Virus record (IMG/VR): IMGVR_UViG_2675903654_000023
Strand: one strand, 5' to 3'
Origin: a virus
Lineage: Duplodnaviria; Heunggongvirae; Uroviricota; Caudoviricetes
DNA: 11,283 nucleotides
Positions 1,291-11,283 of this stretch are shown piece after piece (within the stretch, counting starts at the first letter, position 1; every line of letters starts with the position of its first letter). The translations under genes and the position numbers were made by a program. Below the pieces are notes generated by a model. It made no database searches, was not told the DNA's origin, and saw only the letters and a list, made by a program, of their open reading frames with translations.

Positions 1291-1773
1291 CTATCTGGTC
1301 AGGGTGTCATACTGTTTTTCGCAGACTCTTCCGGCTTCGGCTGCCCGGTCAGCATACTCTGCCAGTTGTCTATTTCTCTCGAGAGATTTGCTGAACACGT
1401 CGGCAAGCAAAACTCCGGTATCTGCGGCTGACGCCCCAGCGCCGACAATGGCGTTATATTGCCTGAGCTGCTCACGGATGGCAACGAGCTGTCGCTGCAA
1501 CCTGCCAGCGCGAGCGGCAGCATCAAGAGCATCACTGCGCGCCTGATCGATTCTCTGCTGCGCTTCACGTTCATTGGTCACTTTCTCCTGTTCGTAGTAC
1601 TGACGAACTTTGTCTTCTTCGGCTTTGCGGTCTTCTTCCGCCTGCGCATACCCGGCATCGTACTGGCGGCTGCCGTGTATATTCCAGGCAACCACTCCGA
1701 CGATGAACAGAGCAGCAAGCATCAACACGATAAGCAGCTGTTTCCAATATGATTTTACGAATGTCAGGATCAT
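1291..1773 (-). CDS. Rz-like i-spanin (inner-membrane lysis protein)
   Basis: N-terminal transmembrane segment ([18 protein letters not shown]) followed by a charged, coiled-coil-like periplasmic domain. Its ATG overlaps the endolysin stop in an ATGA junction at 1770-1773. It is the last gene of the lysis cassette. Confidence 0.75.
1299..1574 (-). CDS. Rz1-like o-spanin lipoprotein embedded in a different frame inside Rz
   Basis: Lies entirely within the Rz gene in another frame. Encodes a signal peptide with lipobox LALAGC and a Pro/Ser-containing mature part. The longest ORF starts at 1574; an internal ATG at 1532 ([12 protein letters not shown]...) is the more likely start. Confidence 0.55.
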   Translation of the reverse strand: MNVKRSRESIRRAVMLLMLPLALAGCSDSSLPSVSSSGNITPLSALGRQPQIPEFCLPTCSANLSREIDNWQSMLTGQPKPEESAKNSMTP

Positions 1774-2399
1774 ACCGTCAGCACCTTACTGGCAGTGATG
1801 TATCGCGCTCGCCGGTCGTCTATGCCGTTCCTGCCACCATTGATAATCAGAGTTACACGAGCAATATCGCCGGTATACTTCATGCAGCCTTTGCCGGAGA
1901 AGAACCACGCCGCGCTACGAGCCGCGTATTCGTCCTGCGCCAGCAGTTCAGGATTCTCCAGCAGGTCAACTTTCAGACCGTTTCCACAGTCACGATAGTT
2001 ATTCAAACCGGTAATCTGGATAAGCCCGCGCCCACGGTAATTCCAGCCATCGCCGGGAGCATTGTTACCCATGCGTTTGCTGTATACCAGATTTGCGATC
2101 GCGCGCTGGCGCTCAAGTGGCAATGGTGGTTCACCAGCACGGCGACCCAGTGCATTAGCCTGCCCCTGAGTGAGACGCCCAGCCCGAACGAAGTTAGCTA
2201 GACCGCTGACACTGTAGTTGAAATTCTCCTGCAACCGGGTGAAACCACCAGACTCATGCCCGACCTGAGCAATAAACATTGCCTGATCTTCGGTTTTGCT
2301 GATACCAAACTCTTTCATCGCAGAAGTTATATGCGAGAACCAGCGTGCGGCCAACGCCTCGCTAATACCAGCAGCTCGCTGGAATTGTTTAATCTCCAT
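1770..2399 (-). CDS. Phage endolysin, glycoside hydrolase family 19 (chitinase-like lysozyme)
   Basis: The protein carries motifs recalled from GH19 phage endolysins ([24 protein letters not shown]). RBS GAGG lies 7 nt upstream of the ATG at 2399. It overlaps the upstream membrane-protein gene by 11 nt and the downstream Rz gene by 4 nt. Confidence 0.85.
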
Positions 2400-2697
2400 G
2401 TTTAGACCTCGTTATTTTAAAAATCTGCACAACGTTACCGCGCGTTTTAATAACCGCAGCAAGCATGACAGCGTTGATAATGACCTCAGATAAATCCACA
2501 GCCATTGGCGTGCGTAACCAGATTGCATAAACGACACGAACAGGAATACTGGCCGCAGCAACAATCAGGAAATAAGCAATCCACCCACCCCATCTTCGGT
2601 GTTGAGATCCGTTACGCTGGAAAGTGACAACGCGAATTGCTATGCCAGTACAAATAACTGCATTGGTGATAATTAAAAAAAGGTCATGCGTTACCAT
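2389..2697 (-). CDS. Holin-like small membrane protein (three predicted transmembrane segments, charged C-terminus)
   Basis: Three hydrophobic segments and a basic C-terminal tail ([19 protein letters not shown]). Sits immediately upstream of the endolysin and overlaps it. A GGAG-type RBS precedes the ATG at 2697. Confidence 0.55.
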
Positions 2698-3097
2698 CGT
2701 CTTTTCTCCCCGGAATTAACTCGCGTGGATTATCGGAACGGTGATAGAGCCATATACCAATACGAACAGCGACAATTGCCGACACGAACGCACCTGCAGA
2801 AAATACAATCCCTTTCTCGAATGAGTCCTGCGTGATGGTTGGAATCAGGCTAGCTATGCCGATAAGAATTGATGCTGCCGGTTTGTAGAAAAGAAGGCCG
2901 CAGAGAAAGCTGAGCATCGACAGAAGAACACGACGACGGATTGGGTATTCTACTGCAGAGGTAACAAAAATTACCGCACCAGCCAAAGATCCCAAAGCGA
3001 CCTCTGGAGGAACTCCTGCTATCACCGCAGCAAGAGAACTAACGCTAAGCCACTGATTTAATGATTCACTTGTTAGACCAGCAGACATTGCAACCAC
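2684..3097 (-). CDS. Lysis-associated polytopic membrane protein (holin or antiholin candidate)
   Basis: Four to five hydrophobic segments and a charged C-terminus; it is the first gene of the lysis cassette. The longest ORF begins at a GTG (3097-3095); an ATG three codons downstream (3088-3086) has a GGTGG Shine-Dalgarno 5 nt upstream and is the more likely start. Confidence 0.5.
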   Translation of the reverse strand: MVAMSAGLTSESLNQWLSVSSLAAVIAGVPPEVALGSLAGAVIFVTSAVEYPIRRRVLLSMLSFLCGLLFYKPAASILIGIASLIPTITQDSFEKGIVFSAGAFVSAIVAVRIGIWLYHRSDNPRELIPGRKDDGNA

Positions 3098-3191
3098 CGT
3101 TTACTGTTCATGACACCCCCTTAGTTGAGTGGGTATATCATACACAATAAACCGTAAACGGATAATCAACCTAAGATTAGCCCGAACAAAG

Positions 3192-3206
3192 TTACCTTAT
3201 AGGTAA
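3192..3206. promoter_or_regulatory. Palindromic operator-like site TTACC-N5-GGTAA (copy 1 of 4)
   Basis: Seen directly: gTTACCttataGGTAAa. It lies in the AT-rich intergenic island between the lysis cassette (minus strand) and a small plus-strand ORF. Confidence 0.45.
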
Positions 3207-3271
3207 AACTCTTACTGTTGAATGTTAATTTATATAGGTTTCCCTTTCGGATGTTAAAGAGTGGGAATCGC

Positions 3272-3442
3272 ATGAACACAATAACTAAATTTGGGCACTG
3301 GTTTATCATGGCGATGGGGATTGCATGCCTGTTAATGCTAATAACAGGCATTTCCTCTGCGAAAGTTTTTGTTGGTGTTGATATCGCAATGATAGCGATA
3401 TGGCTATGGGATGAATATTCCCACTGGAAGCACAAGCAATAG
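3272..3442 (+). CDS. Hypothetical small membrane protein (56 aa, two hydrophobic segments)
   Basis: Internal ATG of track ORF 3218-3442. A purine-rich stretch (AGAGTGGGAA) precedes the ATG. Lies in an AT-rich island convergent with the tailspike gene. Coding status is uncertain. Confidence 0.3.
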   Translation: MNTITKFGHWFIMAMGIACLLMLITGISSAKVFVGVDIAMIAIWLWDEYSHWKHKQ

Positions 3443-5518
3443 CTATTTATTGGAAAATAAATTCTCAAGCTTGCTAATTCTGGCTTCCAGTTTCTGCCGC
3501 TCTCTCCGCTGATATGCAGCTTCCAGCCAGAGACATTGATCAGCACGAATGCCCCATCGGTTTCCCGCTGGCGTAACCAGCAGCCTGCCCTCAGGCTTTA
3601 CAATCTCTGTCCAGGCTTCTTTCTTGACGATTTGCTGCATTGATACATCCAAAATAGAAGAATACTCGGCAGGATGCTCAACCACTTCCTCAGGGATAAT
3701 CTCGTACTGGTCTTGCCATTCATCGTAACAGAGCAGGCCAAATCGAGTCCCGTCGATTCCTTTCGACTCGAATGCCTCTTTAACCTGTTGTGCAATAACG
3801 CCAAAATGCCAACGTGCGCCAGCCTGCCCCTTTTCTTTAATAGAATTCAGCCACTGAAAAGCGATTATTGAAACTTCCCCCCACGCGTCAAGTATTGCAT
3901 TTTCATCAACAGCCATGAATTTCGATAGCTCTGATACTTTAATCGGCTGTGATTTTTCACGGCCGTCTGAAGTATTAATTGAACCAGTGCCTGCAAAAAC
4001 GGTGCTCCAGCGGTTTACGATATCACCCAAAGGTGTTGAGTTATCATTACCAGGGGTTAACGCGCGCTGGGAGACTGCGGCAGGCTTAATCTGGAGACGC
4101 ACCTCATTTCCGGATACAAATTTTAAACTAGTGTCGCCTGTTGTACCTAAATAAGTCCCGTTTACATCAGTTGTCACAAAGCCGTGAAAGTTACCGGTCG
4201 CCCCGCCGCGCCAGCTTATGGCGTAAGTTAATTGCGACGGATCTATGCCAAATCCTGCAGCGCCATTCTGGAACATCTTGCCAAGGTTCGGAGCATAATA
4301 GCCATAGCCATTCATCTGTCGGACATTTATAGCTACGTTCGCTCCCCGAGCCGCTTTTAAATGCTCAATATAAACGCCGCTTTGTTCACCTACAATGCCA
4401 GTACTTCCAAGCAAAACATCATTGATATATACCCCTCTGCGGTCGAGTATCGTCCCGGTTCCATTATGTGATGGGGATGAATAAAATCCCTGCATGTTTT
4501 CCAGAGTTCCGCTTCCGGCGTAATTAATACGATCTTGAAAGCTGAAAGCGTGATTTTGAGCGTGGCCGCCAGTTATGATTAGCGTTGAATCAAAAGCTCC
4601 ATATCCGCCATAGTCGGAGGCCTGATTAATAACTGTCTTATCTGCGAAGGCGTGGCAGTTCGTTGGCGCGTTATCGATACGACGAGCCACGTTTATGGCG
4701 TCTCTTAGCGAATCAGGCGACGGCCATGTAGCGCCAGCCACGCCGACTGGCTGGTCGCCAACTATAAGATTTCCGTACGTGGTTGAGATGCGTAAACCGC
4801 CTGTCATTGTGTCGCCGCGCTTGTCGACTGCGTTACCTACCCTTTTGACTCCATCAGGCTGAGCCAGGGTTATCAGTACGTCAGAGGCGCTACCGCTTTG
4901 TGGAACAACAGTAATTGGATTTCCTGATGAATCGAAAGCCAATAGCTGATTTGCTCGCATCGACACGCCAGGAACTGGGCCTACATAACTCTCCGGAACC
5001 CGTAGCGTGCGGTTGAAGTTAACGTTGTTAAGCGTATCAACATAATTTTTAGTGGCTGCATCTTGGGGGGTTGAAGGATCGCGTAAGTTTCTGATGTAAT
5101 TGTTAAGCGCATCATAATAATTTGCCACGAATGACGGCTTACGCAGCGCCAAGCTAAACCAACTTCGAACCTGCTGGATCAGCATCGTTAGCTTATCAAA
5201 AGCATCCTCATGCACTTCTGCAAAGAACTTACCCTGATTACGCAAATCAGTTTCCTGCGTAACCGGGAGCTCTCGTGATATAGAAATCTGATAACCGCTA
5301 ACCAATGCCTTCGACAGAATTATATTGCCACCATTGTATCCTCCAGCCCCAGTAACTATGTAATCAGTGTCAAGAATCAGCTCTGTGATGTTCTCGTTCA
5401 GGTCAACAACCTGCACTACTAAATCAGATTTCTGGAAAATCCTGAAGGTATAAGGGAATGTCGTTGTAACACCGTTACCGGTGTATTCGTTGTGGTCAAC
5501 TTCGGTTGAGACCGTCAT
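3443..5518 (-). CDS. Tailspike / tail fibre protein with a C-terminal intramolecular chaperone (peptidase S74-like) domain
   Basis: 691 aa. The N-terminal roughly 120 aa resemble the particle-binding N-domain of podovirus tail fibres/tailspikes (YTGNGVTTTFPYTF...). The central region is Gly/Asn/Thr-rich, consistent with a beta-helix receptor-binding or depolymerase domain. The C-terminal roughly 175 aa start with an S-D-x-R-x-K motif (SDGREK, about residue 517, nt about 3968-3970), the hallmark of self-cleaving chaperone domains. RBS GGAG lies 7 nt upstream of the ATG at 5518. Confidence 0.85.
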   Translation of the reverse strand: MTVSTEVDHNEYTGNGVTTTFPYTFRIFQKSDLVVQVVDLNENITELILDTDYIVTGAGGYNGGNIILSKALVSGYQISISRELPVTQETDLRNQGKFFAEVHEDAFDKLTMLIQQVRSWFSLALRKPSFVANYYDALNNYIRNLRDPSTPQDAATKNYVDTLNNVNFNRTLRVPESYVGPVPGVSMRANQLLAFDSSGNPITVVPQSGSASDVLITLAQPDGVKRVGNAVDKRGDTMTGGLRISTTYGNLIVGDQPVGVAGATWPSPDSLRDAINVARRIDNAPTNCHAFADKTVINQASDYGGYGAFDSTLIITGGHAQNHAFSFQDRINYAGSGTLENMQGFYSSPSHNGTGTILDRRGVYINDVLLGSTGIVGEQSGVYIEHLKAARGANVAINVRQMNGYGYYAPNLGKMFQNGAAGFGIDPSQLTYAISWRGGATGNFHGFVTTDVNGTYLGTTGDTSLKFVSGNEVRLQIKPAAVSQRALTPGNDNSTPLGDIVNRWSTVFAGTGSINTSDGREKSQPIKVSELSKFMAVDENAILDAWGEVSIIAFQWLNSIKEKGQAGARWHFGVIAQQVKEAFESKGIDGTRFGLLCYDEWQDQYEIIPEEVVEHPAEYSSILDVSMQQIVKKEAWTEIVKPEGRLLVTPAGNRWGIRADQCLWLEAAYQRRERQKLEARISKLENLFSNK

Positions 5519-5694: not shown

Positions 5695-5713
5695 ATTGCA
5701 TGGAGAAGATAAG

Positions 5714-5971
5714 ATGCAGCAGTATCACTATCCACTGGAAGACGGATTTACCGAAAGGATTCACACGCCGGGAGGCGTCAGGTCACTGGTGGAGGGATCG
5801 CACTTGATGAAATTACTCCGGGATCTCGATAAGGATGGATTTAATGTCGATGGCCCACTTGCCGAACTGACTGCACTGATTAACTACGTCACCAGCTCAC
5901 AGATGTCTATGCGGGATCTGCAAACACATCTCGACTATTGTGCCGAACAATTACGAAAACAAACCAGATAA
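5714..5971 (+). CDS. Small stand-alone antirepressor C-domain protein (85 aa), probably SOS-controlled
   Basis: RBS GGAG (5702-5705) precedes the ATG at 5714. The protein aligns without gaps over about 72 residues with the shared C-terminal domain of the two larger antirepressor-like proteins, at roughly 45-50% identity by eye (IHTPGGV...LMKLL...DG..V.G..AELT...RDLQTH..Y). The LexA box lies immediately upstream. Confidence 0.6.
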   Translation: MQQYHYPLEDGFTERIHTPGGVRSLVEGSHLMKLLRDLDKDGFNVDGPLAELTALINYVTSSQMSMRDLQTHLDYCAEQLRKQTR

Positions 5972-5974
5972 GGT

Positions 5975-6003
5975 TTGCAATTACCAAGTGGAGTGCTTAT
6001 ATT
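5975..6003 (+). promoter_or_regulatory. Sigma70-type promoter of the plus-arm sRNA-like element
   Basis: Seen directly: -35 TTGCAA (5975-5980), 17-nt spacer, -10 TATATT (5998-6003). It begins 4 nt after the stop codon of the 85-aa gene. Confidence 0.5.
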
Positions 6004-6017
6004 TACCTTTGCGGTAA
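6003..6017. promoter_or_regulatory. Palindromic operator-like site TTACC-N5-GGTAA (copy 2 of 4), overlapping the -10/+1 of the sRNA promoter
   Basis: Seen directly: ATTTACCtttgcGGTAAAT, an extended 7-5-7 palindrome. Confidence 0.5.
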
Positions 6018-6130
6018 ATTTACATCGCACTCCTCTTGTGCCATAGTAATCGGGCACTGGCAAAATCCAGTGCCGGGATTGGCGTCCCGGATTACTACAG
6101 AGGCACATATGCCGCATAAGCGGTTTTTTT
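6010..6130 (+). ncRNA. Candidate structured small RNA / terminated leader (plus arm)
   Basis: Bounded by the promoter above and an intrinsic terminator (GCCGC-ATAA-GCGG followed by seven T, about 6111-6130). The core (about 6004-6097) is more than 95% identical to the inverted copy at 8993-9086. It contains stable hairpins (GGCACTGG-CAAAAT-CCAGTGCC and CCGGGA-TTGGCG-TCCCGG). No conserved ORF spans it. Confidence 0.5.
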
Positions 6131-6225
6131 ATGTGTAAAACGCACCTATTCTATGGTGGGCTGTGTGGGGGCACCGAAAGGTGCGCCGGGTCCTTTGTAG
6201 CCGGTTACGCCAACTCTGCACAGTT

Positions 6226-6256
6226 CACCACCAACCGATTGGCGTCGGTAGTGGTG
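6226..6256 (+). promoter_or_regulatory. Leader hairpin upstream of the Bro-N antirepressor RBS, loop UUGGCG
   Basis: Seen directly: CACCACC-A-ACCGA-TTGGCG-TCGGT-A-GTGGTG. The loop is identical to the hairpin-2 loop of the plus-arm sRNA element. The hairpin ends about 27 nt before the ATG at 6284. Confidence 0.45.
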
Positions 6257-6283
6257 ATTAACCTAACTACAAAGGTGATCACT

Positions 6284-6970
6284 ATGACTGCTAACGTAAC
6301 CCCATCTGTTTTTCATTTTGAATCAGAAGCAACCATTCGAGCCATTGTTATTGATGGAAATCCTTGGTTTGTTGCCAAAGACGTTATTAAAGCTCTTCAA
6401 CTGACAAACCCCACTATGTCAATAAAATCTCTTGATGATGATGAAAGGGCTAAATTTAACTTAGGCCGTCAAGGCGAAACCAATATTATCAACGAGTCAG
6501 GCCTCTACACACTGATCCTCCGCTGCCGCGACGCAGTGACACCAGGCACTATCCCCTACCGCTTTCGTAAATGGGTTACAGGTGAGGTTCTTCCTCAGAT
6601 CCGCCGCACCGGAAGTTACATTAAAAACTCGCTCCCGCAGGAAGAACGCATAAAGATGGTTGCCGACCAGGTAGCCAACGCCACGGCGTCAGCAGTGATG
6701 AAGGCGATGAAGATAGAGAACAAAACCTACAGCGCCCCGCTGAAGCCAGGCTACCGCAGCCTGATTCACTCGCCGTCTGGTGTTCTCGGCCTGACGGAGA
6801 ACTCACTGCTGATGAATCTGCTGAACCAGTTACAGGAAGACGGGCACGACGTATCGGGCGCGGCGGCGGAGCTGACCACCATGTTCTGCTACATCGTCGG
6901 TGTGAGCAAATGCCTGCGTGATATCCAGACGCACGCGGAGTACATCAACGACAAGGCTGGGTTCTTCTGA
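6284..6970 (+). CDS. Antirepressor-like protein: N-terminal Bro-N domain plus shared C-terminal domain
   Basis: Internal ATG of track ORF 6131-6970, with RBS AGGTGA 5 nt upstream. The N-terminus has Bro-N motifs (IRAIVIDGNPWFVAKDV...GLYTLILRCR...FRKWVTGEVLPQIRRTG). The C-terminal roughly 80 aa are identical to those of the convergent gene at 8144-8800. Confidence 0.8.
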   Translation: MTANVTPSVFHFESEATIRAIVIDGNPWFVAKDVIKALQLTNPTMSIKSLDDDERAKFNLGRQGETNIINESGLYTLILRCRDAVTPGTIPYRFRKWVTGEVLPQIRRTGSYIKNSLPQEERIKMVADQVANATASAVMKAMKIENKTYSAPLKPGYRSLIHSPSGVLGLTENSLLMNLLNQLQEDGHDVSGAAAELTTMFCYIVGVSKCLRDIQTHAEYINDKAGFF

Positions 6971-6993
6971 CGGGCGGCGGCACAGGGATGTGC
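6730..6993. repeat. Inner inverted repeat, left arm (partner 8121-8385)
   Basis: Seen directly by reverse-complement comparison. About 230 bp (6763-6993) are near-identical to the reverse complement of 8121-8352, with one mismatch noticed. Identity drops to roughly 90% over the preceding 30 bp and is then lost. It covers the shared C-domain coding sequence plus a 3' hairpin (GGCACAGGGATGTGCC). Confidence 0.85.
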
Positions 6994-7042
6994 CTTTAAA
7001 TAATTCTGTACAGATTGCAGACTGTGGGTGAATAGCGTACTA

Positions 7043-7057
7043 TTACCTCAAGGGTAA
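7043..7057. promoter_or_regulatory. Palindromic operator-like site TTACC-N5-GGTAA (copy 3 of 4), upstream of the central module
   Basis: Seen directly: aTTACCtcaagGGTAAa. It is followed by a second inverted repeat (ACGGATT-N14-AATCCGT, 7059-7086) that overlaps a candidate promoter. Confidence 0.45.
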
Positions 7058-7063
7058 ACGGAT

Positions 7064-7093
7064 TGGTTTCATTTTTATTAATCCGTGTAATGA
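7064..7093 (+). promoter_or_regulatory. Candidate promoter of the central two-gene module
   Basis: Possible -35 TTGGTT (7064-7069), 18-nt spacer, -10 TAATGA (7088-7093). This is a weak call from reading the sequence only. Confidence 0.3.
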
Positions 7094-7117
7094 ACTTATG
7101 AGATATGAGGTAATGTC

Positions 7118-7297
7118 ATGCGAAACGAAAAATTGCAGATGCGTAGAGCGCAAGCTGCCGCAAGACGTTCTTTCAATGGAAGCGTAGAGTACGTAAAAGT
7201 TACTATGACAAAAGATCACGCAAGTCGCGTATCCCGCGCTTTCTTTGATTCTCGTAACAATAAGGAAAATTATGAGTTCGTCTGCGTCGCAGAATGA
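7118..7297 (+). CDS. Small basic protein (59 aa), candidate antitoxin or regulator of the central module
   Basis: Absent from the ORF track, presumably below its length cut-off; hand-translated as MRNEKLQMRRAQAAARRSFNGSVEYVKVTMTKDHASRVSRAFFDSRNNKENYEFVCVAE. Strong RBS GAGG 7 nt upstream of the ATG at 7118. Its 3' end overlaps the start of the next gene by 26 nt in a different frame. Confidence 0.45.
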   Translation: MRNEKLQMRRAQAAARRSFNGSVEYVKVTMTKDHASRVSRAFFDSRNNKENYEFVCVAE

Positions 7298-7817
7298 TAA
7301 AAATCAAGTTGTCAGATATAAGGGTCGAGTGTTGCATACGCAAAATTTCTCGGCCCTTTGTGCATCTGATCTTGAGCTGAAGAAAGTATCTGATGCCTTT
7401 ACCCAGTATTGGAAAACGGGATACCATCCATCTCTTGGTAAAGATGCTGCATTTGCTCGTCCGACAGAAATGCTTAAACTAAATGTCAGGCATACTCATG
7501 TCGATAACCAAGACTATATTCCAGAAGATAGTGATAAAAAACACACTGGTAAAAAATCATCTTGGGATGCATGGAAAAATATAGCGTCTGTACAAGTAAA
7601 ATGCATACCAACAAGTGATTGCTTTTTAGTTTATTCGGTAAATCACAATCGTGATGCGCTGGTTATGTTTTTTGTTGACGCAGATGCTCACAACATAACT
7701 GAGCAAGAAGAGTTTAAAGAGGAAGCAATCACTATCAGTTATCAATTCTTTGAGAAAACAAAAACAGAACCAATGCCTTTAGAAGAAGATCTTTTTTCTG
7801 ATAAATGGAAGGAATAG
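7272..7817 (+). CDS. Hypothetical protein (181 aa), candidate toxin; weak YafO-like resemblance
   Basis: Internal ATG of track ORF 7245-7817, with RBS AAGGA 5 nt upstream. AT-rich coding sequence. Segments (GKDAAF...LNVRHTHV...CFLVYSV...ALVMFFVDADAH) resemble motifs I recall from YafO-family toxins; this is from memory and unverified. An intrinsic terminator follows directly. Confidence 0.55.
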   Translation: MSSSASQNDKNQVVRYKGRVLHTQNFSALCASDLELKKVSDAFTQYWKTGYHPSLGKDAAFARPTEMLKLNVRHTHVDNQDYIPEDSDKKHTGKKSSWDAWKNIASVQVKCIPTSDCFLVYSVNHNRDALVMFFVDADAHNITEQEEFKEEAITISYQFFEKTKTEPMPLEEDLFSDKWKE

Positions 7818-7837
7818 CCCGCAGCGCGGGCTTTTTT
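7817..7837 (+). terminator. Intrinsic terminator of the central module
   Basis: Seen directly: stem GCCCGC (7817-7822), loop AGC, stem GCGGGC (7826-7831), then six T (7832-7837). It overlaps the stop codon. Confidence 0.7.
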
Positions 7838-7909
7838 GTGGACGAAACAAAAGTCAGTGCTACACTCATTGACGCCACATTGAGGTGGCTTATAGATGGA
7901 AATTTCACA

Positions 7910-8071
7910 ATGAAAAAAGCATTTGCTGCACTGTTCGTTTTGTTGTCTCTGGTAGCTTCAACTCAGGCCTTTGCCGGTCGTTGTCAGCACGACAGCGATA
8001 CTGCCGCTGACGGCTCCCGCTGCGGTGGGCGTTCTGCGGATTCCCGCCCGGGCGGCGGTGGCATTCGTTAA
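7910..8071 (+). CDS. Hypothetical small secreted peptide (53 aa precursor, about 31 aa mature, two Cys), possibly leaderless
   Basis: Internal ATG of track ORF 7805-8071. Signal peptide MKKAFAALFVLLSLVASTQAFA followed by a Gly/Arg/Asp-rich tail. A candidate promoter (TTGACG 7869-7874, TATAGA 7891-7896) would place the transcript start only a few nt before the ATG. No convincing Shine-Dalgarno. Coding status is uncertain. Confidence 0.3.
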   Translation: MKKAFAALFVLLSLVASTQAFAGRCQHDSDTAADGSRCGGRSADSRPGGGGIR

Positions 8072-8094
8072 AAACAAGGCCGCGAAAGCGGCCT
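8070..8094 (-). terminator. Candidate intrinsic terminator downstream of the AntA-type antirepressor gene
   Basis: Plus strand AGGCCGC-GAAA-GCGGCCT (8077-8094). On the minus strand this hairpin is followed by TGTTTTT. A 12-bp perfect palindrome GTGACATGTCAC (8095-8106) lies adjacent. Confidence 0.4.
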
Positions 8095-8120
8095 GTGACA
8101 TGTCACGCTAGTTTCGTTTT

Positions 8121-8385
8121 GCACGTCCCTGTGCCGCCGCCCGTCAGAAGAACCCAGCCTTGTCGTTGATGTACTCCGCGTGCGTCTGGATATCACGCAG
8201 GCATTTGCTCACACCGACGATGTAGCAGAACATGGTGGTCAGCTCCGCCGCCGCGCCCGATACGTCGTGCCCGTCTTCCTGTAACTGGTTCAGCAGATTC
8301 ATCAGCAGTGAGTTCTCCGTCAGGCCGAGAACACCAGACGGCGAGTGAATCAAACTGCGGTAGCCGGGCTTCAGTGGGGCGCTGT
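8121..8385. repeat. Inner inverted repeat, right arm (partner 6730-6993)
   Basis: Reverse complement is near-identical to 6763-6993; see the left-arm entry. Confidence 0.85.
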
Positions 8386-8800
8386 ATTCTTTTTTGTCTT
8401 CCAGCTTGATCGCCTCCATAATGGCGGGCATGAAGCCTGACAAGACCTTCTCCACTTTTGTTTCTTGTTGTCTTAAACGTTTCTCGCATTCAATGAAGTA
8501 GCGTCGTACCTGACGACCTTTTTCGTTACGCTCGACCATCGCCAGCTCTTTGGCTGTATCAAGGGTGAGGTGGTACTCTTTGCGGTTGTGGCCGCCTCTA
8601 CCAGATGTTTGCTTTCCCAAATTGGAAAGCAAAATATAGTCTTGATTTTCAATGAATTCGTATTCTGATATGCGATTTGTAATCCATGCTGCAAACACCT
8701 TTTTAACACCTAAAAAAGCGTGCAGATCGCGGGCATTACAAAGTAGGGCTGTTTCGTTAGATATAGTGCCGTTGAATACGGGGATGAGTTGAGCGTTCAT
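8144..8800 (-). CDS. Antirepressor-like protein: N-terminal AntA-type domain plus shared C-terminal domain
   Basis: The N-terminus matches the AntA/AntB antirepressor N-domain pattern (LIPVFNGT...[10 protein letters not shown]...W...EYEF...[27 protein letters not shown]). The C-terminal roughly 80 aa are identical to those of the 6284-6970 product. RBS GGAG 8 nt upstream of the ATG at 8800. Confidence 0.85.
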
Positions 8801-8828
8801 GATGGCGTCTCCACTTAGCGAATTACAT

Positions 8829-8859
8829 CACCACCGCTGAGACCAATCAGATGGTGGTG
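8829..8859 (-). promoter_or_regulatory. Leader hairpin upstream of the AntA-type antirepressor RBS, loop UUGGUC
   Basis: Minus-strand reading: CACCACC-AT-CTGA-TTGGTC-TCAG-C-GGTGGTG. The loop is identical to the hairpin-2 loop of the minus-arm sRNA element, and the stem differs from the plus-arm leader by compensatory changes. Confidence 0.45.
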
Positions 8860-8958
8860 AACTGAACGGAGTTGGTCTTACCGGCCTAAGTGGTACCGGC
8901 GTCCTTTCGGACCCCCATTCAGCCCACCATAATTCTGGCATGACTGTGCTATACGCAT

Positions 8959-9080
8959 AAAAAAAACCACGTCTGGCGTGGTATGCGCCACTTAGTAATC
9001 CGGGAGACCAATCCCGGCACTGGATTTTGCCAGTGCATGATTACTATGGCACAAGAGGAGTGCGATGTAAATTTACCGCA
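8959..9080 (-). ncRNA. Candidate structured small RNA / terminated leader (minus arm)
   Basis: Inverted copy of the 6010-6130 element. Its own intrinsic terminator on the minus strand is ACCACG-CCAGA-CGTGGT followed by eight T (plus coordinates about 8959-8982), different in sequence from the plus-arm terminator. Hairpin-2 reads CCGGGA-TTGGTC-TCCCGG. Confidence 0.5.
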
Positions 9081-9087
9081 AAGGTAA
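9073..9087. promoter_or_regulatory. Palindromic operator-like site TTACC-N5-GGTAA (copy 4 of 4), overlapping the -10/+1 of the minus-arm sRNA promoter
   Basis: Seen directly: TTTACCgcaaaGGTAA. It is part of the outer inverted repeat. Confidence 0.5.
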
Positions 9088-9116
9088 TGATAAGCGCTAA
9101 GAAATATTAAAATCAA
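9087..9116 (-). promoter_or_regulatory. Sigma70-type promoter of the minus-arm sRNA-like element
   Basis: Minus-strand reading: -35 TTGATT (plus 9111-9116), 18-nt spacer, -10 TATCAT (plus 9087-9092). Sequence upstream of the -10 is not homologous to the plus-arm promoter, yet a promoter is retained. Confidence 0.45.
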
Positions 9117-9234
9117 CCATATTTGGTTAATGCGTATAAAAGAGCCAGCAGCGAGAAATTGTGCCGCGACGTAAAATAACGAGCATCTGCTGGCTTACAA
9201 CCAGCGATGTTTCAAATTTGTCACTATTATCAAC

Positions 9235-9582
9235 GTGCCATTCCACGGCGCAGAGCTTTATGTTGTCAATCACAACGGCGAACCGTATACCCCAATGAAA
9301 CCTATCGTTGAGGGAATGGGGCTAGACTGGAAATCTCAACATAAGAAGATTTCTCAACGCTTCTCGAAGGGTATGGTGGAAATCACCATACCTTCTGCCG
9401 GTGGGGTGCAAGCCATGATTTGTATGGCTTTACGAAAATTGGCAGCTTGGTTGAACAGCATCAGCCCTAACAAAGTCCGCCCTGAAATCCGCGAAAGTAT
9501 TGAAACATCAACCGTATCGATATCGACACGGTTGATTATGACGGTAACTTATTTCCGTGTGTCCTATTTCTCCCGCCACTAA
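9235..9582 (+). pseudogene. Probable remnant of an antirepressor N-terminal (P22_AR_N-like) domain gene
   Basis: The track ORF starts at a GTG with no RBS. Residues about 8-85 (LYVVNHNGEPYTPMKPIVEGMGLDWKSQHKKISQRF...LRKLAAWLNSISPNKVRPEIRE) resemble antirepressor N-terminal domains as I recall them. The last roughly 30 residues look like out-of-frame read-through. It ends back-to-back with the convergent 98-aa gene. Confidence 0.35.
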
Positions 9583-9879
9583 CTAATTATATTTGTCTTT
9601 AAAAATTTCATGGAATGATTGAGAGTAAGACTTGCCATACTTCAAATAACATTCTTCATCCAACTTTCTTAATGAACTTCGAACCTGTTCGTGGCATACA
9701 GCAAAAAAAACAAGTCCGCCGCCTATTAATACCCCTATTGATATTGGGTTCGCAACATCCCATAAAAAATCGGCTAACAGAGCAAATACCCCACCGCCGC
9801 CAATAAATGCCCCTATAGCTCGGTTCGTTTTAGCTTGCTCATAGCGTCTCTCTAACTCACTAAACTCTTTAATATCCAT
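9583..9879 (-). CDS. Small two-pass inner-membrane protein (98 aa) with glycine-zipper segments
   Basis: RBS GAGGTG 7 nt upstream of the ATG at 9879. Two hydrophobic segments rich in GxxxG (AIGAFIGGGGVFALLADFLW and ISIGVLIGGGLVFFAV). AT-rich coding sequence, immediately downstream of the large virion-protein gene. Confidence 0.6.
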   Translation of the reverse strand: MDIKEFSELERRYEQAKTNRAIGAFIGGGGVFALLADFLWDVANPISIGVLIGGGLVFFAVCHEQVRSSLRKLDEECYLKYGKSYSQSFHEIFKDKYN

Positions 9880-9897
9880 ATAAGCACCTCTATAAAA

Positions 9898-11283
9898 TTA
9901 CTTCATCACCGGATCCACCTGGTTTATTAGTGGCGCAATCCAGAACAGGTTATTGCCGGGTATCAGGGTTCGGACATTATGCACAATACGATCACCGGCA
10001 TCACCATTCAACACTCCTGCGGTCACATCAATGATGCTATCCGCAAGACCAAATGACGGTCCGAATAGAGATCCTACGAATCCACGACTGGCATACCTAG
10101 ACTGTGTGCCAGTGCCAAATAAAGCCCCCAGCCCAACAGCACCACCAGTAGCCTTTTCAGCCATGTTGTTATATTCCATCAATGGCCCAAGAATACCGGA
10201 TCTATCTATACCCTCAAGCACCAGCTTCTCTGGTGACCAGTCAACATTTTTCCCTTTCGATGCTTCTTTTAGCGCATAGACCAGTGAGCCAAGAGCAATC
10301 TGAAATGCAGTGCCATAATAAAATTGCGCAGTTCCTTCCTGTAACCCACCAAGTAGCGCACGGTTGTATGAAGCCGTTGTGAATGATTTAAACTGAAATA
10401 TCGTTCGCCCCATTGGAGTACTCGCCCATAAAGGTGTGTCACCAATACCGGGGGTGATGATAGTGTTATTAACGTCTTTCAGAACCGCTGACTGGAATAC
10501 TCCGGCAACGTACTGATCGTCCCATTTATCAAAGTTACCAATGTGCCATCCATCAATTACCTCACCATGTTTCTCGAACTCACTGCGAATACGCGCAGCC
10601 ATATTGTCGTTGATACCGAGTTTTGCCATGCGACGTGCAGAAAACGCACCAGACAAAATACCGTCTGACGTGAGCATTCCGTTCATGGATTTGTTTATGT
10701 CATTAAATCGATCCATGAGTGTCAGCTTGCCGAAGGCATCAGTAATTCGCTCCATTCCTGCTTCGACTGCTGTTGTCCTGGAAGAACTGTCAACAAGATC
10801 ACCAATTGCACGAGAACGTGAATGTAGTACAGCTTCCAATCCAATCCCCATCTTCAACATCTCTTCTTTGCTGGCCTTAAATGCCGGTGATTGGGATATC
10901 TGAGAAGCATAGCCTTTCATGGTGTTACGGAAACCATTAACCATAACCCCTCTGGCCAGATCTGGAATAGCTGATACTGTCATTCCACCGAGTTTGGTCG
11001 TGAAGTTCACATCCCGCAGAAAAGCGCCAGCACGAACAAAAAACGAAGACGGATCATCAGGCATACCATATGTACCAACAAGACGATCGCGTAATGCTGT
11101 TATGTCTCTGAGATCATTTGCTCTTGATTTTGAAAGTCTGGACTGTTCTTTCCGTAATTCCTTTTCGTACTTTCGCATTAATGAATCGAGTTTACCCTGA
11201 GGAACAACTTCACCATTGCTCTCATAACGTGCTTTCAGATTTGCCACACTTTCGTCATATTTCGCCTTTATTTTTTCAGGCAC
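9898..11283 (-). CDS. Large phage protein, 5'-truncated by the window edge; probably virion-associated, function unassigned
   Basis: Open reading frame running to the window edge, so the N-terminus lies outside. The sequence read has a charged N-terminal part and a Gly-rich hydrophobic stretch near the C-terminus (GGAVGLGALFGTGT). Its position directly upstream of the accessory module and tailspike on the same strand suggests a late-operon gene. Confidence 0.6.
   Translation of the reverse strand: MPEKIKAKYDESVANLKARYESNGEVVPQGKLDSLMRKYEKELRKEQSRLSKSRANDLRDITALRDRLVGTYGMPDDPSSFFVRAGAFLRDVNFTTKLGGMTVSAIPDLARGVMVNGFRNTMKGYASQISQSPAFKASKEEMLKMGIGLEAVLHSRSRAIGDLVDSSSRTTAVEAGMERITDAFGKLTLMDRFNDINKSMNGMLTSDGILSGAFSARRMAKLGINDNMAARIRSEFEKHGEVIDGWHIGNFDKWDDQYVAGVFQSAVLKDVNNTIITPGIGDTPLWASTPMGRTIFQFKSFTTASYNRALLGGLQEGTAQFYYGTAFQIALGSLVYALKEASKGKNVDWSPEKLVLEGIDRSGILGPLMEYNNMAEKATGGAVGLGALFGTGTQSRYASRGFVGSLFGPSFGLADSIIDVTAGVLNGDAGDRIVHNVRTLIPGNNLFWIAPLINQVDPVMK

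What the first reader, a model, noticed from the sequence alone, without database searches (positions are those of the whole stretch)
9583..9879. AT-rich small two-pass membrane protein just downstream of the virion-protein gene
A 98-aa protein with two glycine-zipper hydrophobic segments is encoded directly after the large late gene, with a strong RBS and an AT-rich composition. Small inner-membrane proteins at this position in temperate phages are often superinfection-exclusion or injection-blocking factors. That is only a positional analogy; the protein has no motif I recognise.
Basis: inference. Interest (0 to 1): 0.45.

Follow-up and report, generated by a model that had tools for sequence, protein, structure and literature searches.

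The report
Optional small membrane-hairpin gene ending ejection operon
This is a real, selectively maintained but optional prophage gene for a 98-residue two-helix inner-membrane protein of unknown function. It sits at the very end of the DNA-ejection-protein operon, and its most plausible, still untested, role is blocking DNA entry by other phages.

Summary
Window 9583-9879 (minus strand) encodes a 98-aa protein with two hydrophobic helices, a GAGGTG ribosome-binding site and 38% GC against 46-48% in the flanks. It starts 18 bp after the stop of the last internal-virion (ejection) protein gene of an epsilon15/TL-2011b-like E. coli prophage.

The gene is real. Seven differences from a second E. 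coli allele are all synonymous, dN/dS is 0.06-0.13, and about 18 homologue clusters share a cytoplasmic LDxxC[YF]xK[YF]GKxYxxS motif.

The family (PHROG 21905, function unknown) has no Pfam, NCBIfam, PADLOC or PDB match. It is absent from 50,697 sequenced phages. In prophages of Escherichia, Citrobacter and Serratia it is almost always the last cistron after the ejection genes.

It is optional cargo:
- 43 E. coli genomes and phage TL-2011b have the same ejection-gene end without it.
- ST131-type prophages acquired it together with a 51-bp remnant of that gene.
- It is AT-rich in every locus.

Superinfection exclusion at DNA entry, in the manner of T4 Imm or P22 SieA, is the best guess (about 0.35). 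No promoter of its own was found, so a late-lytic role remains a serious rival.

Interest is modest.

The parts
9583..9879 (-). CDS of the 98-aa helical-hairpin inner-membrane protein (PHROG 21905 family; RefSeq WP_001555166.1 'hypothetical protein')
   Evidence: Purifying selection is shown and family conservation.
9885..9890 (-). Shine-Dalgarno sequence GAGGTG, 5 nt upstream of the ATG
   Evidence: read directly from the sequence
9760..9819 (-). codons 21-40: transmembrane helix 1 (AIGAFIGGGGVFALLADFLW)
   Evidence: hydropathy scan; AF2 helix 3-40
9694..9744 (-). codons 46-62: transmembrane helix 2 (ISIGVLIGGGLVFFAVC), holding the family-invariant G53 and V57
9616..9663 (-). codons 73-88: the most conserved stretch, the cytoplasmic motif LDxxC[YF]xK[YF]GKxYxxS (invariant L73, C77, K83, Y85, S88)
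   Evidence: alignment A2
9716..9738 (.). copy 1 of a 23-nt internal direct repeat encoding the IGxxIGGG core of helix 2. Its partner lies at 9794-9816, 78 nt away. Recombination between the two copies explains the 72-aa single-helix variant P0002.
9794..9816 (.). copy 2 of the 23-nt internal direct repeat (core of helix 1)
9703..9710 (.). A8/T8 homopolymer inside the helix-2 codons. The frameshifted database variants P0003 and P0005 break at or near this run.
9507..9536 (-). 13-bp-stem hairpin 47 nt after the stop codon, followed by a weak U-tract; a possible terminator of the cassette
   Evidence: region folds at -31.5 kcal/mol, z = -3.2. It was not called by the strict terminator scan.
9898..9948 (-). 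last 51 bp of the ejection-protein gene. In 34 ST131-type E. coli prophages this piece survives as a non-coding remnant directly in front of the small gene, which marks the left edge of the transferred cassette.
9898..11283 (-). 3' 461 codons of the last internal virion / ejection protein gene (1007 aa in full copies). The C-terminal region carries Gly-rich hydrophobic stretches at residues 321-338 and 401-427 of the fragment.
   Evidence: PHROG 16310 (7e-245) and PHROG 342 'internal virion protein' (3e-107); full length; hydropathy
9235..9582 (+). convergent, truncated P22-type antirepressor gene (P22_AR_N only) abutting the small gene's stop codon; the right-hand neighbour of the cassette

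Best explanation
Shown: ORF 9583-9879(-) is a genuine gene under purifying selection. It encodes an N-in/C-in helical-hairpin inner-membrane protein. The hairpin has two helices with GxxxG/GGG faces, a 5-residue periplasmic turn, and a small conserved cytoplasmic helical bundle formed by the N-tail and the LDxxC[YF]xK[YF]GKxYxxS C-tail.

Shown: it belongs to a rare uncharacterised family. That family is found in temperate podovirus prophages of Enterobacterales that have T7-type internal-core genes, and it occupies the last cistron of the ejection-protein operon. This is the slot that epsilon15 fills with an unrelated two-helix gp18.

Shown: the gene is optional, AT-rich and exchanged horizontally between phages.

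Inferred: the protein works in the inner membrane of the cell that carries the phage. There it interferes with membrane insertion of the last ejection protein of an incoming related podovirus, probably through helix-helix packing within the membrane. DNA entry would then be blocked. This would be superinfection exclusion in the manner of T4 Imm and P22 SieA.

Inferred: it is made at least with the late operon, and possibly at a low level from the prophage.
For: Real gene: 7 of 7 differences from the UTME-9 allele are synonymous, and dN/dS is 0.06-0.13. Eighteen clusters at 50% identity turn up among 1.84 billion representatives, with 8 invariant residues.

Membrane hairpin.

Accessory, mobile cargo:
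- TL-2011b has a 99.3% identical ejection-protein C-terminus (100% identical DNA from window 9904) but no such gene.
- 43 E. coli genomes have the ejection-gene end without the gene, and 38 of 5426 have the gene.
- In 34 of those 38 genomes the gene sits behind a 51-bp remnant of the window-type ejection gene. The resident ejection protein of those prophages is only 45% identical.
- The gene is 7-24 GC points below its flanks in every syntenic locus.
- The small proteins diverge far faster than their neighbours, for example 32% against 86%.

Linkage to the ejection machinery: the gene lies 8-20 bp after the last ejection gene in loci from Escherichia, Citrobacter, Serratia and metagenomes.

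Found only in prophage and metagenome settings: no match in 50,697 phage records.

One homologue (L014) is a stand-alone unit with 280 bp of upstream spacer and a terminator, so the protein can function apart from a virion operon.

The same slot in relatives holds other envelope-directed cargo.

Precedent: P22 sieA adjoins ejection gene 16. [quoted passage not shown] The gp16-type ejection proteins insert into the inner membrane through C-terminal helices (PMC8954989). The neighbouring gene here has Gly-rich hydrophobic C-terminal stretches.
Against: - No sequence or profile similarity to SieA, to any Pfam or NCBIfam family, or to any PADLOC defence model.
- The gene is co-oriented with, and nearly abuts, a late gene. 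No sigma-70-like promoter was found upstream here or in four homologous loci above chance level. Lysogen expression, which classic exclusion genes need, is therefore unsupported.
- Only about 5 residues face the periplasm.
- Identity of the small protein does not track identity of the neighbouring ejection protein (Spearman 0.28, not significant), so there is no sign of specific co-evolution.
- Several database copies are frameshifted or deleted.
Confidence: 0.35

Rival explanations
1. It is a late-lytic accessory membrane protein serving the phage's own cycle. It would be made with the ejection proteins as the last cistron of their operon. It might shield the producer cell's inner membrane from premature insertion of the membrane-active ejection protein, or it might tune lysis timing in a holin- or antiholin-like way.
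For: - It is on the same strand, 8-20 bp after the ejection gene, in nearly all loci. No promoter of its own was found, and a rho-independent terminator follows right after it in L004, L007 and L017.
- epsilon15 has an unrelated 64-aa two-helix gp18 in exactly this slot, followed by the annotated operon terminator.
- Its size, two helices, N-in/C-in topology and charged C-tail fit the generic class II holin description (my own knowledge of holin classes).
Against: - It is dispensable. TL-2011b, an isolated phage, and 43 E. coli prophages carry the same ejection-protein C-terminus without it.
- It is kept intact behind a non-cognate (45% identical) ejection protein and an intervening 282-aa gene in ST131-type prophages.
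- A stand-alone copy exists.
- A complete lysis cassette with two holin-family genes lies elsewhere, at 1291-3097.
- A specific conserved cytoplasmic motif is unlike holin tails.
- There is no Pfam holin match.
Confidence: 0.25
2. It is some other lysogenic-conversion or defence cargo acting in the membrane. It could be an abortive-infection effector or small membrane toxin, or a modulator of a host membrane protein unrelated to DNA entry.
For: - It has the signatures of optional cargo: it is optional, AT-rich and rapidly diversifying.
- The region between the ejection and tail-fibre genes is a cargo zone that also holds a YafO-like toxin gene and several antirepressor genes.
- A stand-alone homologue has its own terminator.
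Against: - There is no match to any PADLOC model.
- The near-universal attachment to the ejection-gene 3' end is unexplained by this reading.
- No partner gene (antitoxin or sensor) is consistently adjacent.
Confidence: 0.2
3. It is a small virion-borne ejection protein packaged with the internal core, a fourth conduit component.
For: It is encoded in the ejection-protein operon with tight spacing. Podoviruses do eject small core-associated proteins (PMC11784390, title and abstract only).
Against: - It is optional among phages with near-identical core proteins.
- It is a strongly hydrophobic integral-membrane hairpin.
- A stand-alone copy exists outside any operon.
- The family is absent from all sequenced phage isolates.
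Confidence: 0.06
4. It is not a gene: a chance ORF in AT-rich spacer DNA.
For: It is short and has no domain hit.
Against: - All 7 differences from the UTME-9 allele are synonymous, and dN/dS is low.
- Homologues down to 26% identity are conserved.
- It has a strong ribosome-binding site.
- It matches PHROG 21905 over its full length at 1e-67.
Confidence: 0.01

Closest known systems
P22 SieA (superinfection exclusion A; types A-C)
   Same: - It is an inner-membrane protein of a temperate podovirus.
- Its gene adjoins the last ejection-protein gene, ahead of an antirepressor region and the tailspike or tail-fibre gene.
- It has a conserved cytoplasmic C-terminal motif.
- The family is very divergent within itself (PMC10883804).
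   Different: - SieA is 162-164 aa with 3-4 helices and a FxRYPxEAxxFNK motif.
- Its gene is convergent to gene 16 and has its own promoter.
- There is no detectable homology to the window protein.
- The function of the window protein is untested.
T4 Imm (immunity to superinfection)
   Same: It is a small inner-membrane protein of about 83 aa with two predicted helices. It blocks DNA transfer across the inner membrane (my own knowledge; listed as an injection inhibitor in PMC11436027).
   Different: - Imm is an early gene of a lytic myovirus.
- There is no Pfam match at E <= 0.1. Whether Pfam holds an Imm model (Imm_superinfect, as I recall) was not checked, and no direct comparison with T4 Imm was made.
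- The genomic setting is different.
epsilon15 gp18
   Same: It occupies the same slot: it directly follows the last ejection-protein gene (gp17) on the same strand and is the last cistron before the operon terminator. It is small, with two hydrophobic helices.
   Different: It is 64 aa and unrelated in sequence, has no cytoplasmic tail motif, and its function is also unknown.
HK97 gp15 moron (superinfection exclusion)
   Same: It is an optional small inner-membrane protein gene sitting co-oriented inside a late structural operon. It blocks DNA entry of related phages (Cumby et al. 2012, cited in PMC11436027; details from my own knowledge).
   Different: It belongs to a siphovirus and its target involves the tape-measure protein and PtsG. 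The moron there has its own promoter and terminator. The sequences were not compared here.
Class II holins / pinholin S21
   Same: They are of similar size, with two helices, N-in/C-in topology, Gly-rich helix faces and a charged C-terminus (my own knowledge).
   Different: The window gene is not next to the endolysin, and the prophage has its own two holin-family genes at 2389-3097. There is no Pfam holin match. The window protein has a conserved structured cytoplasmic motif.

Membership tests
PHROG 21905 (function unknown) | full-length match to the family profile | tested here: met
   E = 1.2e-67, residues 1-98 against profile positions 1-98 of 98
P22 SieA family | sequence or profile homology, including the FxRYPxEAxxFNK cytoplasmic motif | tested here: not met
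   hhalign of family alignment A2 against P22 SieA gives probability 0.2% and E 0.3. The motif is absent from the sequence.
P22 SieA family | three or four transmembrane helices, about 160-200 aa | tested here: not met
   98 aa with two helices. SieA features are taken from PMC10883804.
P22 SieA family | gene adjacent to the last ejection-protein gene | tested here: met
   There are 18 bp between the genes here. P22 sieA lies 22 bp from gene 16, but on the opposite strand.
P22 SieA family | expressed from the prophage by its own promoter | tested here: inconclusive
   No consensus promoter was found on the coding strand upstream in the window or in four homologous loci. A consensus scan is weak evidence, and no transcript data are available.
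P22 SieA family | blocks DNA injection by related phages | not testable with these tools
   needs infection assays
T4 Imm | match to a Pfam model of the Imm family | tested here: inconclusive
   There were 0 Pfam families at E <= 0.1. I did not verify that Pfam holds an Imm model, and no direct comparison with T4 Imm was made.
T4 Imm | small inner-membrane protein with two helices | tested here: met
   (prediction only)
Moron (extra gene in a late operon; Juhala/Hendrix sense) | present in some phages and absent from close relatives between the same flanking genes | tested here: met
   TL-2011b and 43 E. coli genomes lack it, and 38 carry it
Moron (extra gene in a late operon; Juhala/Hendrix sense) | nucleotide composition distinct from the flanks | tested here: met
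   38.4% against 45.5% and 47.6% GC here; 7-24 points lower in every syntenic locus
Moron (extra gene in a late operon; Juhala/Hendrix sense) | own promoter and terminator | tested here: inconclusive
   A terminator follows the gene in L004, L007, L017 and L014, and a hairpin lies at 9507-9536 here. No promoter was found.
Class II holins | two helices, N-in/C-in, charged C-terminal tail | tested here: met
Class II holins | encoded in the lysis cassette next to the endolysin; matches a holin family | tested here: not met
   The lysis cassette is at 1291-3097, with two holin-family genes. There is no Pfam holin match. Homologous loci also have separate holins.
PADLOC defence systems | match to any defence-protein model | tested here: not met
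   0 families at E <= 1
HK97 gp15 exclusion protein | sequence homology | not tested
   The sequence was not at hand. The only PHROG hits are to families of unknown function.

The most novel reading that the evidence does not exclude
The family is a new class of ejection-conduit blockers, far smaller than SieA, that travels at the 3' end of the ejection-protein operon of epsilon15-like and related temperate podoviruses. A 98-residue helical hairpin would pack, through its GxxxG/GGG faces, against the Gly-rich membrane-inserting C-terminal helices of the incoming gp16-type ejection protein and stop the inner-membrane channel from forming. That would give a minimal, tractable model for how exclusion proteins jam a podovirus ejectosome. 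It would also explain why this operon end is a recombination hot spot for envelope-directed cargo.
Probability: 0.3. Interest if true: 0.6.

Novelty: new variant of a known kind. Interest (0 to 1): 0.35.

Why it matters
If the protein blocks DNA entry, it would be a second, unrelated and much simpler example of an inner-membrane protein that targets the podovirus ejection conduit. How that conduit assembles in the inner membrane is still poorly understood.

The gene is carried by a prophage common in pandemic E. coli ST131-type strains, so it could shape which temperate or therapeutic podoviruses can infect them.

If it instead serves the late lytic cycle, it would point to an unrecognised optional helper for membrane-active ejection proteins.

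Either way the immediate value is modest. The result is a well-delimited candidate family with clear synteny, not a demonstrated function.

Tried and rejected
- **Domain and family searches.** Pfam, NCBIfam and PADLOC gave nothing for the protein or its Citrobacter homologue.
- **Solved structures.** A PDB sequence-profile search gave only noise, with E >= 0.28.
- **Fold searches.** Foldseek against PDB and BFVD returned only generic helical hairpins. The best viral hit was an unnamed 106-aa protein at E 1.2e-3, which I could not follow up. The afdb50 library was unavailable.
- **Sequenced phages.** tblastn of three family members against 50,697 phage records found no match.
- **SieA homology.** hhalign against P22 SieA was negative.
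- **More loci.** The search for related loci with the whole-family alignment failed because no stretch was conserved enough. A degenerate motif pattern found nothing in the GTDB species genomes. In IMG/VR and the metagenomes it found only E. coli-type copies plus L028 and L035.
- **Promoter.** Consensus scans in five loci gave nothing above chance on the coding strand just upstream.
- **Co-evolution.** The correlation between small-protein identity and ejection-protein identity was weak and not significant. I therefore dropped the idea of a specific cognate pair.
- **Literature.** There were no hits for the RefSeq accession. The HK97 gp15 paper is not held.
- **Chance ORF.** Rejected on the selection data.

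Full report
**Setting.** The window begins with the E. coli chromosomal genes yfgH (1-516) and yfgI (532-1071). It then runs into the right arm of an epsilon15/TL-2011b-like podovirus prophage, read on the minus strand:
- Rz with an embedded Rz1 (1291-1773);
- a GH19 endolysin (1770-2399);
- two holin-family genes (2389-3097);
- a tail fibre with an endosialidase-chaperone domain (3443-5518);
- a homologue of epsilon15 gp19 (5696-5971, + strand);
- a cargo zone of Bro-N, AntA and P22-type antirepressor genes plus a YafO-like toxin gene (6131-9582);
- the target ORF (9583-9879);
- the last 461 codons of a large internal virion protein gene (9898-11283).

The large protein matches PHROG 16310 at 7e-245 and PHROG 342 'internal virion protein' at 3e-107. 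Full-length copies are 1007 aa and follow an SLT-domain protein and a T7 gp14-family core protein. It is therefore the last ejection protein of a T7-style core. The window appears to be IMG/VR contig UViG_2693429700_000024.

- The ORF has 98 codons and starts with ATG. GAGGTG lies 5 nt upstream, and the start is 18 bp after the TAA of the ejection-protein gene.
- GC is 38.4%, against 45.5% upstream and 47.6% downstream.
- Hydropathy gives two segments (residues 21-40 and 46-62) joined by DVANP. There is no K or R in the turn, 5 K/R in the N-tail and 7 K/R in the C-tail, which indicates an N-in/C-in hairpin.
- AlphaFold2 on a 12-sequence alignment gives a helical hairpin (H3-40, H45-81) plus a short C-terminal helix, with mean pLDDT 76.7.
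- Both helices carry IGxxIGGGxVF, so there are GxxxG motifs but no strict glycine zipper. These cores are encoded by a 23-nt direct repeat (9716-9738 and 9794-9816).

**It is a real gene.**
- The allele in E. coli UTME-9 differs at 7 nucleotides, all in third codon positions and all synonymous.
- Nei-Gojobori dN/dS is 0.13 against the Citrobacter copy and 0.06 for L007 versus L035.
- An exhaustive phmmer search of 1.84 billion cluster representatives found 18 clusters. Nearly all complete members are about 100 aa.
- Twelve members at 26-60% identity share G30, G53, V57, L73, C77, K83, Y85 and S88. The most conserved stretch is the cytoplasmic LDxxC[YF]xK[YF]GKxYxxS.
- The family corresponds to PHROG 21905, whose function is unknown.
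- Pfam, NCBIfam, PADLOC, a PDB profile search and Foldseek (PDB, BFVD) gave nothing informative.

**Where the family lives.** Members lie on the same strand, 8-20 bp after the last large ejection-protein gene, in all of these:
- E. coli (window, L032, L034, L036);
- Citrobacter braakii (L003);
- Serratia (L004, L005);
- several metagenome contigs (L006-L009, L017, L028, L035).

This holds even though what follows differs from locus to locus: terminase genes, a tailspike gene or an antirepressor zone. A rho-independent terminator follows the gene in L004, L007 and L017. In L006 it follows the next gene, a small lipoprotein gene. Phage epsilon15 has an unrelated 64-aa two-helix gp18 in exactly this slot, followed by the annotated operon terminator.

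There are two exceptions. P0009 (L014) is a stand-alone unit with about 280 bp of upstream spacer and its own terminator. P0013 (L016) follows a 119-aa ORF. No family member was found by tblastn in 50,697 sequenced phages. The contexts that could be read are prophages or unassigned contigs.

**It is optional, mobile cargo.**
- Phage TL-2011b is 100% identical in DNA from window position 9904 onward, and its ejection-protein C-terminus is 99.3% identical. It nevertheless lacks the gene. Instead, a convergent gene for a 187-aa membrane-anchored protein abuts the ejection gene.
- Among 5426 complete E. coli genomes, 38 carry the gene, and 43 have the same ejection-gene 3' end without it.
- In 34 of the 38 carriers (ST131-type prophages such as MCJCHV-1), the gene is preceded by a non-coding 51-bp remnant of the window-type ejection gene (9898-9948). 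That remnant follows an unrelated 282-aa signal-peptide protein gene, and the resident ejection protein has a C-terminus only 45% identical. The gene was therefore imported with a scrap of its former neighbour and is kept intact away from its original partner.
- In every syntenic locus the small gene is 7-24 GC points below its flanks; in L006 it is 28% against 52%.
- The small proteins diverge far faster than the adjacent ejection-protein C-termini. For L004 versus L017 the figures are 32% against 86%. For L006 versus L007 they are 58% against 90%.
- The two identities are not significantly rank-correlated (Spearman 0.28; Pearson 0.50, p = 0.02).
- In related phages the slot holds other cargo. 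There is a 282-aa secreted protein in EC.W1-9 and a 204-aa protein in a Klebsiella phage. There is nothing in lytic Vibrio relatives.

**Mechanism.** What is shown is an integral inner-membrane hairpin with almost no periplasmic exposure and a conserved small cytoplasmic bundle. It is encoded as optional cargo fused to the end of the ejection-protein operon.

The best-supported inference is superinfection exclusion at the DNA-entry step.
- gp16-type ejection proteins are thought to breach the inner membrane with C-terminal helices (PMC8954989).
- The neighbouring gene here has Gly-rich hydrophobic C-terminal stretches.
[quoted passage not shown] - T4 Imm is a comparably small two-helix injection blocker (my own knowledge; PMC11436027).

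A hairpin with GxxxG/GGG faces could pack against the incoming helices within the membrane.

The main weakness is expression. P22 sieA is convergent and has its own promoter. This gene is co-oriented, nearly abuts a late gene, and shows no consensus promoter in five loci. It may therefore be made only late in infection. That keeps open a late-lytic role, such as protecting the producer membrane from its own ejection protein or tuning lysis. Against that rival stand the gene's dispensability, its retention behind a non-cognate ejection protein, the stand-alone homologue and the separate complete lysis cassette. Other membrane-acting cargo functions, and less likely a virion component, cannot be excluded.

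**Comparison with known systems.**
- By sequence, the protein is a member only of PHROG 21905.
- It fails the sequence and architecture tests for SieA, and it matches no Pfam holin family and no PADLOC defence model. For T4 Imm there is only the negative Pfam search, and no direct comparison was made.
- It meets the presence/absence and composition criteria of a moron, but not demonstrably the own-promoter criterion.
- It works most like Imm or SieA if the inference is right, and positionally it is the counterpart of epsilon15 gp18.

**Verdict.** This is a real and tidy but functionally unproven candidate. I rate it a new variant of a known kind, a small inner-membrane prophage cargo protein that is a probable entry blocker. 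Interest is 0.35. Its interpretation is plausible and now better framed, but it remains untested.

Noticed in passing
window 5992-6097 / 8993-9098, 6184-6258 / 8827-8901 and 6715-6993 / 8121-8399: Nested inverted repeats (106 nt at 93%, 75 nt at 73%, 279 nt at 96%) make two mirrored antirepressor cassettes: Bro-N Ant at 6131-6970 (+) and AntA at 8144-8800 (-). The two share an almost identical C-terminal domain, which also occurs in the epsilon15 gp19 homologue at 5696-5971. The arrangement could allow inversion or recombination of the 1.1-kb segment between them.
   Followed up: partly
window 7245-7817 (+): A 190-aa protein with a YafO-toxin match (Pfam PF13957, 9e-6, just above the cutoff; PHROG 1651). 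RefSeq names its counterpart in UTME-9 a type II toxin-antitoxin YafO family toxin. It sits between the inverted repeats. I did not look for a partner antitoxin.
   Followed up: no
window 9235-9582 (+): A truncated P22-type antirepressor gene with the P22_AR_N domain only. It is 98% identical to the ant gene of phage CUS-3 over 9400-9498, and RefSeq annotates it as a pseudogene missing its C-terminus. Its stop codon directly abuts the stop of the small membrane gene, so the cassette seems to have replaced the rest of ant.
   Followed up: partly
window 9703-9710 and 9716-9738 / 9794-9816: An A8/T8 run and a 23-nt direct repeat inside the small gene coincide with database variants. There are frameshifted 69-73-aa forms (P0003, P0005) and a 72-aa in-frame deletion (P0002) that removes exactly the 26 codons between the repeats. 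Whether these are real inactivation, phase variation or sequencing errors is unknown.
   Followed up: partly
L028 7296-7580: In this IMG/VR prophage the small gene (P0008) follows a 1129-aa ejection protein. It is itself followed by an ORF whose product resembles the C-terminal end of the other (824-aa) ejection-protein type (...LQEYFSPGYLRKMEKR...). This is a second remnant showing that the operon end is a recombination junction.
   Followed up: partly
window 1291-1773 and 1299-1574 (-): An Rz-like spanin gene (DUF2514) has a second ORF embedded in another frame. That ORF's product begins with a lipoprotein-type signal (…LALAGCSD…), which looks like an Rz1 o-spanin. The prophage/host junction lies between 1071 and 1291, next to yfgI.
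   Followed up: no
L002 7420-7983 (TL-2011b), L001 20375-21223 (MCJCHV-1), L006 10335-10715: Other cargo in or next to the same slot is also directed at the envelope. TL-2011b has a convergent gene for a 187-aa N-terminally anchored protein. MCJCHV-1 has a 282-aa protein with a signal peptide. L006 has a 126-aa probable lipoprotein. None of them has a Pfam match.
   Followed up: partly
window 3166-3546: An AT-rich stretch of about 340 bp (38-40% GC) lies between the holin genes and the tail-fibre gene. It holds only a 126-codon GTG ORF of odd composition, which is probably spacer or a decayed gene.
   Followed up: no
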